From the human T2T-CHM13v2.0 reference genome, Homo sapiens, in assembly GCF_009914755.1 (NCBI RefSeq), contig NC_060926.1: a DNA stretch of 64,000 bases, one strand, 5' to 3'. The translations under genes were made by a program, and so were the position numbers. This document shows positions 51,202 through 53,684 of the stretch, piece after piece. The notes under the pieces were generated by a model that saw nothing but the letters and a program-made list of their open reading frames with translations, made no database searches and was not told where the DNA came from. Every line of letters begins with the position of its first letter. The stretch's first letter is position 1.

Positions 51202-52661
51202 AGAAAGCTGCTGGTTGACTGCTGGGCCTCACAGAAGGTGATTGGATATGGATCTGTTATACTGAGTACCCCCAATTTTCAATATCTGTCCATCCTTAAG
51301 CATGATTGCATTTTAGGGGAGCCAAATGGGAGAAAAGGAATGAGAGAAGGGACATTGCGTCATTTGAGTCAATTTCCCTGTTTTCACCCTTGCATCTCAT
51401 ATCTGTTGCCAGCTATGTCCAAGAGTCCAGATTCTCTTTGGTTTAATTTGTCCTGAGTAAACTTCCAGACTTCTGCAGAGAAGGGGAAAGGGCTGCTCGG
51501 GAAGGGAGAGGGAGTCCTCCCACTCTTCAGCCCTACTTTTCACCTTGTTGCCTGGAATTCCCAAGCCTTCTCTGGGTTCTGTGCATTTGAATCAGTTTGC
51601 TCCTCAGGAGGCCTCACCCAGTTCAGGACTGGGCTTGGAAAGGACACTTTCCAAATCTAGCCCTACTTCTCGTCTGCTTTGAAAATGCTAACTTTTGTTG
51701 GCATATCTTGTCTGCCGTGATTTTCTCTCCTGTCTCTTTGTCTTTGGGTCCTTATACCTGCACATTCCTTCACTGTCCTTCTAGTGAGGTTTTGAAGGGA
51801 CTAGAGACAATGCATGTTCTCCATCTGTCCCATTTCACCAGAAGCCTCCTCTCCTTTCTTTGTCCCCGCCTTTAATAGTTCCTTATCTTCCTTGAAGCTT
51901 CTGCCCTGCACTTATTCTAGTTGAACTTCAACTCAACCTAAAAATTCTCATTCTACCCGAGTCCTCTAAAGGACACAGATTTACTGGTACCATGGGAAGA
52001 GAATAGCTCAGGTCAATGTCCCAGCCACCTAGAGCATGTTGAGCTAGCTCACCGTTGCCACTTCAAACTGACCTGGGTCAGTTGGCTTCATCTGGTCAAG
52101 CCCATGGTGCTTCTGGGATCAGAAGGGCCAGTGGAAGTTAGGTACTGGTGCTGTGATTTGAGCTGACATGGAGCTATGTTTGAGGTTGATATGGTGAAAC
52201 AAACCCACATCTGATCACCTCCCATGAAGCCCACCAGGCAACCAGTTGAATCTCCACGTAGAGAGTTTCCAAGCAACTTTTTGTGCCTCACTCTTAAAGA
52301 TAAGCAGATATCAAAGGTCCTATTGAAAGAGTGTCTGCCCGGCCTCCTGCCTGCAGGTCTTCCCTCCAGTTTTATCCTAATCATTTCTGTCTGATTGACT
52401 GGCATTATCTTTACTATCATCGGTCTCTAGCTCTGCGGGTCCAGGGAGTGTCTGTCGCCTATACAATGTCTGATTTTCACCCTTGGGTTTGTTTTTGTTA
52501 TTCTATCACTGTGTCATCTTGTAAACCATTTACTCTTAGGCAAATGAACTTACTTCTTTTTCTAGAGTATGTCTGTTCCCTTGGAGTTTTCGTGCCTTTG
52601 CACTCTCCTGTCCCTTCCTCAAATGCTGTTCTTAGTTTTTTTTCCAAAGACATCCTACTCA

Positions 52662-52730
52662 GTGGTCTAGTGGTTAGGATTCAGCGCTCCCACCGCCGCA
52701 GCCCGGGTTCGATTCCCGGTCATGGAACCA
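52662..52730 (+). pseudogene. tRNA-Glu-derived pseudogene with CCC anticodon and encoded 3' CCA
   Basis: GTGGTCTAGTGGTTAGGATTCAGCGCT-CCC-ACCGCCGCAGCCCGGGTTCGATTCCCGGTCATGGAA-CCA is a tRNA-Glu(CTC) body missing the 5' acceptor strand. Anticodon 52689-52691 is CCC; flanked by a 17-bp TSD. Confidence 0.9.
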
Positions 52731-53684
52731 AGAAGTGGAGCAGGACGAGCCGTGGCCAAAAATATCCTACTCAGCCCTCCTGGCCTGCTTCCAGTACCAG
52801 CCCCATTGTAAACCAAGTTCTCACTGATTTCTCCCCTCTTTTAAGTTGTAGCACTTATGGACAATAGTGCTTTTTTGTCACTTGTCATTTATAATCTGAA
52901 ATTCTTTTCCTGTGAATGCTCAGATTTAACTAGAAATTAATGATTACGCACTGACTATACTCCGTCTCTCTTACTGTCCGTAACGAGCAATCAGTTTTTC
53001 TAAGTGCCCATTTTACAGTTGAGAACACCAAGGCCCAGTGATTAAATCACTTTGCGTGGGGTTGTGCATGCTGTTTACAGACTAGTACAGCCAGGCTTTT
53101 GTGCATTAAGGTGAAGGCTGTTGTTCGGCCATCATCACTGCCCTGATGGGCACTGCTTCAGATTCTGTAGTTGAAGAGCATCACACACCAGCCTGGAGAG
53201 AAGCTGGTCCAGGCCTTGGAATGCAGGCGTTGGATGTGATGTGTTAGGGCGTGGAAGAAATCCCACAGGCAGTCTGCAGAGTTGAATAACTGCAGCAGGG
53301 GTCTAGCAAAGAGACCACGGACAGAGAACGAGTGGTCAGGGCCAGCCCAGGGAAAGAAGGACCATCCCAAGGAGGCCTTTGATAGGTGTTGTCTCCACTC
53401 CATGCGGCATTTGGGAGGATTGAAGCTTTAGTGTGTGACCTTGAACTAGGCTCTTCCCTGTCTGGGTCTTTAGTTCTCCACTGGTCAAATGAAGGATTCC
53501 AGTGGGTCAGAGAGCTCCAGATGTACCTCCGCGGCAGGACCGGTCTGGCCCAAACCTTCCTCACCCAGCAGGTGTGGCTTTGCAGTCAGGGTCTGTCTGT
53601 AAGATAGAGCACTGCCATGGTATCTAGAAAGTCCCCACACTGTTTGGTTGTGGCCACAATGGAATAACAAAAAGAGCCGCAGTT

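What the first reader, a model, noticed from the sequence alone, without database searches (positions are those of the whole stretch)
52646..52774. Retrocopy of tRNA-Glu-CCA fused to antisense ERV LTR U5: possible fossil primer/strong-stop intermediate
Seen: a 17-bp TSD (aaagacatcctactcag 52646-52662 / aaaaatatcctactcag 52758-52774) encloses a tRNA-Glu body ending in CCA (52728-52730), followed directly by 27 nt AGAAGTGGAGCAGGACGAGCCGTGGCC and no poly-A tail. On the minus strand this reads CGGCTCGTCCTGCTCCA-CTTCT-TGGTTCCATGACCGGGAA. From memory this matches the 3' end of LTR2-type (HERV-E/Harlequin) LTRs (...GCGGCTCGTCCTGCTACA), a short spacer and the tRNA-Glu primer binding site. However, the tRNA match runs about 69 nt rather than the 18-nt PBS, and there is no other ERV sequence. 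Inference: a tRNA primer already extended by ERV reverse transcriptase, or a transcript of such a fusion, was inserted by L1-type target-primed reverse transcription, priming on an internal AAAA. That would record cross-talk between two retroelement systems. A tRNA scanner would only call it a Gly-CCC pseudogene.
Basis: partly seen in the sequence, partly recalled or inferred. Interest (0 to 1): 0.85.

Follow-up and report, generated by a model that had tools for sequence, protein, structure and literature searches.

The report
Retrocopy of a tRNA-Glu–HERV-E junction
A 93-base insert in a GREB1 intron is an L1-made copy of a molecule joining a glutamate tRNA to the reversed tip of a HERV-E retroviral repeat, most likely transcribed from an old defective HERV-E that had copied its whole tRNA primer into its own DNA.

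Summary
Between a 19-nt target-site duplication (17/19 identical) lie tRNA-Glu-CTC positions 8-72, CCA, a 5-nt spacer and 20 nt antisense to the 3' end of the HERV-E LTR, with no A-tail. The extension is not a tRNA gene trailer.

The arrangement is not unique. Nine genomic HERV-E copies carry LTR, spacer and the complement of the whole tRNA-Glu with CCA, joined to gag. About 600 nt of leader is missing, and the junction has 9 nt of microhomology. These copies are flanked by tandem repeats and lie in duplicated regions, and probably correspond to the 'SATR-HERVE-SATR' module of Xiao/DA duplicons. They look like a germline fossil of RT reading through its primer, followed by a misplaced plus-strand transfer.

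The window insert shares a rare U5 base (G) with this variant. That base is seen in 7 of 9 variant copies and in 1 of 96 exact ordinary PBS junctions.

A second isolated copy, on chr2 at 205.8 Mb, certainly derives from the variant. It is fused to an L1 3' end, and its ends fit a Pol III transcript.

Most likely the window element is a tailless, 5'-truncated L1 retrocopy of such an RNA, primed on an internal AAAA.

The parts
52644..52662 (+). A run of eight T lies just upstream.
   Evidence: 17/19 identical to 52756-52774; chance estimate; upstream bases.
52663..52727 (+). tRNA-Glu(CTC) body, positions 8-72; acceptor 5' strand missing. A-box-like stretch 52663-52673 and B-box-like stretch 52706-52716 (box names recalled). 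Anticodon 52689-52691 reads CCC because of T35C at 52690.
   Evidence: 94% to tRNA-Glu genes; those genes called tRNA-Glu ctc; 4 differences in 65; Rfam tRNA 29.8 bits; ARAGORN: none.
52728..52730 (+). CCA, which no tRNA-Glu gene examined here encodes. It marks descent from a mature tRNA.
   Evidence: the four gene loci L003-L006 continue with unrelated trailers; gene hits stop at query position 65.
52731..52735 (+). Complement of the 5-nt spacer that lies between the HERV-E LTR end and the primer binding site.
   Evidence: the LTR ends at ...CTACA in both LTRs of the chr10 provirus, followed by TTTCT and then the PBS. The window has CTTCT on the minus strand.
52736..52755 (-). Last 20 nt of the HERV-E LTR (U5 end), antisense to the tRNA. 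Base 52738 is the G that marks the full-tRNA variant. 52756-52757 may also be source-derived if the duplication is 17 nt.
   Evidence: alignment with 10 full-tRNA loci and 6 ordinary proviruses; G/T census.
52756..52774 (+). 3' copy of the target-site duplication. Its first bases, CCAAAA, overlap the ACAAAA of the source sequence at this point, giving microhomology for internal priming.
   Evidence: the source reads GACAAAAC at this point in L002, L021, L023, L027, L034 and all 6 ordinary proviruses shown.

Best explanation
The element is a tailless, 5'-truncated L1-mediated retrocopy. I reconstruct it in two stages.

Stage 1: the source variant.
- A HERV-E reverse transcriptase making plus-strand strong-stop DNA did not stop inside its tRNA-Glu primer. 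It copied the primer to its 5' end.
- The new 3' end then paired with a 9-nt look-alike in gag instead of the primer binding site.
- The resulting provirus has LTR, spacer, the complement of the whole tRNA with CCA, then gag, and lacks about 600 nt of leader.
- The structure of this provirus is shown. The pathway is inferred.
- The defective provirus then spread by segmental duplication, flanked by tandem repeats. It probably corresponds to the SATR-HERVE-SATR module of Xiao/DA duplicons.

Stage 2: the window insert.
- An RNA was read from the tRNA-sense strand of such a copy. I think most probably this was a Pol III transcript driven by the embedded tRNA's internal promoter and ending at the T-run opposite the viral poly(A) signal. 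This step is inferred.
- L1 used that RNA. The nicked target (T-run / CCAAAAA...) annealed to the internal ACAAAA 25 nt past CCA.
- Reverse transcription ran back to tRNA position 8 and was joined there.
- This left a 17-19-nt target-site duplication and no A-tail.
For: - Extension is HERV-E: the extension matches the LTR end plus spacer next to the Glu PBS. Ordinary proviruses have ...CTACA + TTTCT + an 18-22-nt tRNA-Glu complement. A 22-mer across CCA and U5 occurs 217 times in the genome against 2 for the reversed control.
- Naming: hits coincide approximately with published HERV-E loci such as the AMY1 cluster, CD5, FABP7 and 2q37.1 (Table 1 of PMC4379568).
- Full-tRNA variant: nine copies share both flanks.
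- Variant structure: the sequence past the tRNA aligns to provirus positions from about 1390 onward at 91-93%. It includes a Gag_p30 match, E 3.8e-16. The junction shares CACCAGGGA between the tRNA 5'-end complement and gag.
- Diagnostic base: G at window 52738 is found in 7 of 9 variant copies (the other 2 have A) and in both other isolated fragments. Among the first 100 exact junction matches listed, 95 have T and 5 have G. Those five are 3 variant copies, L002 and one ordinary provirus. Fisher p = 1e-8.
- Sister fragment L002: it carries 6 nt of gag-derived flank and three variant-specific tRNA substitutions (G45T, G50C, G51C, as in L025). It ends in the T-run, is fused to an L1 3' end with an A-tail (L1 identity recalled), and has a 12-nt duplication at a TT/AAAA site inside an Alu. 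RNA from the variant was therefore an L1 substrate.
- Tailless class: the target and 3' junction fit the published features. These are internal priming on A-rich stretches, target complementarity and the motif TT/WAAAAWW (PMC5322556, section 14, read).
Against: - The window copy starts at tRNA position 8. It therefore lacks the gag-derived bases that would prove descent from the genomic variant.
- It has none of the tRNA substitutions shared by subsets of the variant copies (G45T in 7 of 9, G51C).
- It is less diverged from the tRNA gene than the nine variant copies: 4/65 against 82/574 pooled, binomial P = 0.035. On a single-origin model this needs rate differences or small-number noise. L088 shows the same pattern (4/58).
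- One ordinary provirus (chr18, L100) also has the G, so the marker is not exclusive.
- Only 100 of the 217 junction matches were listed.
- No expression or Pol III occupancy data were available. The Pol III step rests on one chimera's boundaries.
- L088 was inserted in the ERV-sense orientation, so not all fragments need a Pol III RNA.
- The target has CC rather than TT directly before the A-run.
Confidence: 0.72

Rival explanations
1. A tRNA-Glu primer already extended by HERV-E reverse transcriptase into U5 (minus-strand strong-stop cDNA still joined to its tRNA) was itself used as template by L1 and inserted.
For: - CCA is followed at once by spacer and antisense U5, which is exactly the strong-stop structure.
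- The tRNA part is closer to the real gene (4/65) than the genomic variant copies are (9-20%), and it lacks their shared substitutions. A fresh tRNA would explain this.
- An ordinary provirus with the same U5 base exists (L100).
Against: - It needs a U5 type seen in 1 of 96 exact ordinary junctions.
- It needs L1 to copy a DNA-RNA hybrid molecule that normally sits inside a viral core, and to pass the modified tRNA bases. No misincorporation is seen in the T-loop.
- The only sister fragment that can be tested (L002) comes from genomic DNA, not from a mature tRNA.
- I know of no mammalian precedent (recalled). My searches returned none.
Confidence: 0.09
2. Retrocopy of a long Pol II antisense transcript running through a full-tRNA HERV-E copy (for example a lncRNA of a duplicon), rather than a Pol III RNA. 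The outcome is the same but the polymerase differs.
For: - The 5' truncation and the internal A priming of the window copy say nothing about the ends of the template.
- L088 shows that the other strand of the variant was also retrocopied.
Against: Both ends of the L002 non-L1 part coincide with a predicted Pol III unit, from a few nt upstream of the tRNA to the first T-run. This would be a coincidence for a long transcript.
Confidence: 0.15
3. An ordinary tRNA-Glu retropseudogene or gene relic whose 3' extension is a gene trailer or chance sequence.
For: RefSeq lists it simply as a tRNA pseudogene (hub annotation).
Against: - All 32 gene-type hits stop before CCA.
- The trailers of four genes are unrelated.
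- The extension aligns to HERV-E LTR ends at many loci.
Confidence: 0.01

Closest known systems
Tailless retropseudogenes (Noll et al. 2015, PMC5322556: outline, section 14 part 1 and supplement passages read; Schmitz et al. 2004 recalled)
   Same: - L1 target-primed insertion without an A-tail.
- Primed on an internal A-rich stretch that is complementary to the target.
- Flanked by a target-site duplication.
- The target resembles TT/WAAAAWW.
   Different: - The catalogued tRNA forms begin at the tRNA 5' end and stop in a loop (about 36 nt for the GluCTC entries seen). This one is 5'-truncated and runs past CCA into retroviral sequence.
- It is not among the chr2 Glu entries visible in the passages shown. 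I did not read the full list.
Defective HIV-1 proviruses with tRNA(Lys3) inserts from deferred second-strand transfer (Hardy et al. 2025, PMC12657518, passages of sections 8, 11, 12); m1A58 as the RT stop (Fukuda et al. 2021, PMC8599865, passages)
   Same: The source HERV-E variant has tRNA sequence continuing past the 18-nt PBS, directly joined to a downstream viral site with the interval deleted.
   Different: - In HIV the inserts are 7-54 nt, somatic and in patients. Here the whole tRNA is copied (58 nt beyond the PBS), in a gammaretrovirus-like ERV.
- The copy is fixed in the germline and duplicated to at least 9 copies.
- The junction has a visible 9-nt microhomology.
SES (SATR-HERVE-SATR) flanking module of Xiao/DA composite duplicons (Li et al. 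2009, PMC2700803, section 3 part 1 read; Mohajeri et al. 2016, PMC5088589, passages; Ji and Zhao 2008 not held)
   Same: A 'modified HERV-E' flanked by satellite-like tandem repeats, dispersed by duplication, and present at 8p23.1. Four of my nine copies lie on chr8 at 6.8-13.0 Mb.
   Different: - I could not verify the names SATR1 and SATR2 for the 63- and 75/76-nt repeats.
- I could not find an OR7E frame in the 10 kb examined.
- The text I read does not mention a tRNA copy.
U6/L1-type chimeric retrocopies (PMC4476161 and PMC6789731 seen as search listing only; PMC11838501 passages)
   Same: L002 is a small Pol III-type RNA copy fused in sense to a 5'-truncated L1 3' end, with one shared duplication at an L1 endonuclease site.
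   Different: - The partner is a tRNA plus antisense U5 unit.
- The tRNA/L1 chimeras reported in PMC11838501 (21 loci) are mostly half tRNAs in antisense to L1.
Okada-Ohshima model: tRNA-derived SINEs start from retroviral strong-stop DNA (recalled; the 1993 J Mol Evol reference is seen only in the reference list of PMC11838501)
   Same: A tRNA head with CCA followed by U5-derived sequence, apparently transcribed and moved by a LINE.
   Different: - Only 2 tRNA-sense retrocopies were found, with no LINE-derived tail and no family.
- The tRNA-U5 unit arose here inside a provirus by plus-strand read-through, not as free minus-strand strong-stop DNA.

Membership tests
HERV-E (LTR2-type LTR) | Primer binding site complementary to the 3' end of tRNA-Glu, directly after the LTR. 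| tested here: met
   Ordinary proviruses L030, L031, L038, L041, L047 and L049 have LTR end + TTTCT + an 18-22-nt complement of tRNA-Glu. The tRNA identity was confirmed by ARAGORN on gene loci.
HERV-E (LTR2-type LTR) | Sequence match to the curated LTR2/LTR2B/LTR2C or HERVE-int models. | not testable with these tools
   No Dfam or Repbase library is available. Indirect support: junction hits lie near published HERV-E loci (against Table 1 of PMC4379568; the assemblies differ and no lift-over was done). Li et al. call the ERV in SES 'HERVE'.
Tailless retropseudogene | Target-site duplication with no oligo(A) tail. | tested here: met
Tailless retropseudogene | 3' end at an internal A-rich site of the source, complementary to the target; target motif TT/WAAAAWW. 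| tested here: met
   The source has ACAAAA where the duplication CCAAAA begins. The duplication's 17-nt form starts AAAAATA. The two bases before it are CC, preceded by eight T, so the TT part is only loosely met.
Direct retroviral strong-stop intermediate | tRNA part copied from a mature primer tRNA at the time of insertion, not from a genomic tRNA copy. | tested here: inconclusive
   CCA is present, but the genomic variant also has it. The U5 marker G points to the genomic variant. Low divergence and absence of variant tRNA markers point the other way.
Direct retroviral strong-stop intermediate | cDNA reaching the 5' end of R. | tested here: not met
   The window copy stops 20 nt into the LTR. 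L002 stops at the T-run opposite the poly(A) signal, short of R's start. Internal priming could hide this for the window copy.
SINE | Internal Pol III promoter, LINE-dependent spread and many copies. | tested here: not met
   Box-like motifs are present (motif names recalled) and L1-type insertions are seen. Exhaustive pattern scans find only 3 isolated copies, 2 of them in tRNA sense.
Functional tRNA gene (RefSeq TRG-CCC7-1) | Complete cloverleaf with acceptor stem. | tested here: not met
   Positions 1-7 are absent. ARAGORN finds none. The Rfam match covers model positions 8-63 only.

The most novel reading that the evidence does not exclude
A HERV-E provirus that swallowed its whole tRNA-Glu primer created, by accident, a new Pol III gene: a tRNA head with CCA, a body of antisense U5, and the viral poly(A) signal read backwards as terminator. 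Its RNA was then moved by L1 at least twice (the window, and the chr2 205.8 Mb chimera). This would be a natural, datable human example of a SINE being born from a retroviral priming structure, as Okada and Ohshima proposed on indirect grounds.
Probability: 0.4. Interest if true: 0.8.

Novelty: new variant of a known kind. Interest (0 to 1): 0.58.

Why it matters
The window element is a small, inert intronic insert. Its value lies in the chain of events that it and its relatives record:
- a retroviral reverse-transcription error (primer read-through and a misplaced plus-strand transfer) fixed in the germline;
- spread of that defective provirus by segmental duplication;
- L1 copying of RNA made from the embedded tRNA.

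This gives a concrete and testable human case for two questions. One is how RT stop signals in tRNA shape proviral structure. The other is how tRNA-headed retroposons can begin.

It also corrects an annotation. TRG-CCC7-1 is a tRNA-Glu(CTC)-derived fragment, not a glycine tRNA relic.

Tried and rejected
- ARAGORN on the window region found nothing.
- The PreQ1 riboswitch hit (20.6 bits, threshold 39) is chance.
- Ji and Zhao 2008, the first Xiao/DA paper, is not held, so I could not see whether the tRNA copy was noted there.
- I looked for an olfactory-receptor frame to tie the variant copies to the Xiao core. No ORF of OR size occurs in the 10 kb of L064, so this remains unresolved.
- Two of three frames past the tRNA gave no Pfam match.
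- In the Noll et al. supplement passages shown, the chr2 Glu entries do not include this locus. I did not read the full list.
- Papers naming Gly-CCC-7-1 appear only as two small-RNA listings, which I did not read.
- I considered insertion in the ERV-sense orientation for the window copy. I rejected it because that strand has neither an A-rich start to the duplication nor an A-tail.
- I considered that the 'extra C' at the tRNA 5' end of the variant was a tRNA mutation. One search shows it is gag-derived sequence.
Only the one new G-type locus was fetched afterwards.
- No primate genomes are held, so no empty-site test was possible.

Full report
**What is in the window.**
- A direct repeat of 19 nt (52644-52662 and 52756-52774, 17/19 identical) encloses 93 nt.
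- Repeats this good at spacings of 60-399 nt occur in 1,206 of 21.7 million comparisons in this window, mostly in low-complexity DNA. A binomial estimate gives 2e-8.
- The first 65 nt of the insert (52663-52727) are tRNA-Glu(CTC) positions 8-72.
- In a whole-genome search, 32 of 40 scored hits were gene-type matches at 88-94% that all stop at query position 65. ARAGORN calls four of them tRNA-Glu, anticodon ctc.
- The four differences from the gene are G28A, T35C, G45A and G68T. T35C changes the anticodon to CCC, which is why RefSeq labels the locus Gly-CCC.
- CCA follows (52728-52730), then AGAAG, then 20-22 nt, then the second repeat copy. There is no A-tail.
- ARAGORN finds no tRNA here. 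Rfam tRNA barely passes, at 29.8 bits against a threshold of 29, covering model positions 8-63.

**What the extension is.** Seven further hits run past CCA into the extension. Aligning them and searching with their LTR part showed a large LTR family: 868 first-look candidates, of which 40 were scored.
- In ordinary members (L030, L031, L038, L041, L047, L049) the LTR end is followed by TTTCT. Then comes an 18-22-nt complement of the tRNA-Glu 3' end, then a normal leader.
- The two LTRs of a chr10 provirus define the LTR end at ...CTACA.
- This is the HERV-E arrangement. A 22-mer spanning CCA and U5 occurs 217 times in the genome against 2 for the reversed control.
- Listed places fall close to published HERV-E loci: seven in the AMY1 region, plus CD5, FABP7, UBE2D2 and 2q37.1 (Table 1 of PMC4379568). 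The assemblies differ and I did no lift-over.
- I could not align to Dfam models.
- The trailers of real tRNA-Glu genes are unrelated to the extension.

**A HERV-E variant that contains the whole tRNA.** Nine loci carry the LTR, TTTCT and then the complement of the entire tRNA-Glu with CCA, not just 18 nt. They share both flanks.
- The loci are chr13:40.68 Mb, chr2:71.06, 96.06 and 159.34 Mb, chr3:128.42 Mb, and chr8:6.82, 7.80, 7.83 and 12.98 Mb.
- Upstream of the LTR lie 75/76-nt and 63-nt tandem repeats.
- Downstream, the sequence aligns at 91-93% to ordinary proviruses from about position 1390 of L066 onward. It contains a Gag_p30 match, E 3.8e-16.
- About 600 nt of leader between the PBS and that gag site are therefore missing.
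- At the junction, the complement of the tRNA 5' end (...GACCACCAGGGA) and ordinary gag (...GACACCAGGGAAAC...) share CACCAGGGA.
- The simplest reading is that plus-strand strong-stop synthesis ran through the whole primer, and its 3' end then annealed in gag instead of at the PBS.
- The same kind of product is described for HIV-1, with tRNA(Lys3) inserts of 7-54 nt at a deletion junction. There it is attributed to failure of the m1A58 stop (PMC12657518 and PMC8599865, passages).
- Because the copies share flanking repeats, they spread by duplication. Li et al. describe a 'modified HERV-E' flanked by SATR satellites (SES) at the ends of Xiao/DA duplicons, and Mohajeri et al. place such units at 8p23.1. 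I think these are the same thing but could not verify the satellite names.

**Where the window copy came from.** One U5 position separates the variant from ordinary HERV-E. Three results favour the variant as source:
- The variant reads ...AAATGG..., and ordinary copies read ...AAATGT....
- Among the first 100 junction matches listed (all exact), 95 have T and 5 have G. The five are three variant copies, the fragment L002 and one ordinary chr18 provirus.
- In the 61 distinct LTR ends I held, the 11 full-tRNA ones have G (9) or A (2). The 50 ordinary ones have T (47), C (2) or G (1, fetched because it had G). The window has G at 52738.

Three results count against the variant as source:
- The window copy begins at position 8, so it lacks the gag-derived bases.
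- It lacks the substitutions shared by subsets of the variant copies.
- It is less diverged from the tRNA gene (4/65) than the nine copies pooled (82/574). Binomial P is 0.035.

L088, which shares a U5 peculiarity with two variant copies, shows the same low divergence (4/58). I therefore read this as rate difference or small numbers, but it keeps the rival alive.

**How it was inserted.**
- The duplication starts with an A-run, and eight T lie two bases upstream.
- The source reads ACAAAA exactly where the duplication CCAAAA begins.
- There is no tail, and the 5' end is truncated.
- This is the pattern of tailless retropseudogenes made by L1 through internal priming (PMC5322556).

**Evidence from the two other isolated copies.** Exhaustive pattern scans find only three isolated tRNA-CCA-U5 copies in the genome.

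L002 is decisive for the pathway:
- It sits inside an Alu between 12-nt duplications at a TT/AAAA site.
- It starts about 5-6 nt upstream of the tRNA with gag-derived bases.
- It carries G45T, G50C and G51C, as one chr8 variant copy does.
- It runs through CCA and 66 nt further, ending in the T-run that is the complement of the viral poly(A) signal region.
- There it is fused to about 95 nt that I recognise from memory as an L1 3' end with an A-tail.
- Its two ends are those expected of a Pol III transcript of the embedded tRNA.

L088 was inserted in the opposite (ERV-sense) orientation, with an A-rich tail and an AAAAAAGGCC duplication.

**Verdict.** The 'fossil primer' is real but sits in the source provirus. 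The window element is most likely a second-hand L1 retrocopy of its RNA (0.72, of which the Pol III step is about 0.4-0.45). Direct capture of a strong-stop intermediate remains possible (about 0.09).

**Not done.** No primate empty-site test, no Dfam naming and no expression data. 117 of the 217 junction hits were not seen.

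Noticed in passing
L063:8913-9772 (chr2:159.34 Mb); likewise L021-L028, L034: HERV-E copies with the complement of the whole tRNA-Glu (with CCA) after the LTR, joined to gag at a 9-nt microhomology, with about 600 nt of leader missing. 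Nine copies, flanked by 63- and 75/76-nt tandem repeats.
   Followed up: yes
L069:913-1199 (chr2:205,836,412-205,836,698): An insertion inside an antisense Alu. A full tRNA-Glu copy with 6 nt of gag-derived leader, CCA and 66 nt of antisense U5 ends in a T-run. It is fused to what I recall as an L1 3' end plus A-tail. 12-nt duplication AAAAAATCTTTT.
   Followed up: yes
L088 (chr3:106,879,136-106,879,242, minus strand): A third isolated fragment: tRNA positions 15-72, CCA and about 63 nt of U5, of the subtype shared with the chr2:96.06 and 71.06 Mb copies. It appears to be inserted in ERV-sense orientation, followed by about 80 nt of unidentified A-rich sequence. Duplication AAAAAAGGCC at a TT/AAAA site.
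   Followed up: partly
L029/L086 (chr8:10,494,354-10,494,786): The last roughly 73 nt of a HERV-E LTR are repeated three times in tandem before the PBS.
   Followed up: no
L100 (chr18:71,693,560-71,694,010): An ordinary HERV-E 5' LTR-PBS junction that carries the otherwise variant-specific G in U5, with a different R region.
   Followed up: partly
chr8:59,013,411-59,013,475; chr1:197,365,400; chr15:70,737,542 (listing): Other tRNA-Glu-derived relics. One has CCA followed by an A-run. Two stop in the anticodon loop before an A-rich stretch, the classic tailless form. Seen only in the pattern listing.
   Followed up: no
window 52519-52535 / 52806-52822: A second 17-nt direct repeat (82%) around the region. 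It has no relation to any insert boundary and is probably chance.
   Followed up: no
window 52656-52727: The RefSeq span of TRG-CCC7-1 begins 7 nt inside the target-site duplication. The scanner apparently used flanking DNA as a false acceptor strand. The Gly-CCC label comes from one T-to-C change in a Glu-CTC anticodon.
   Followed up: yes
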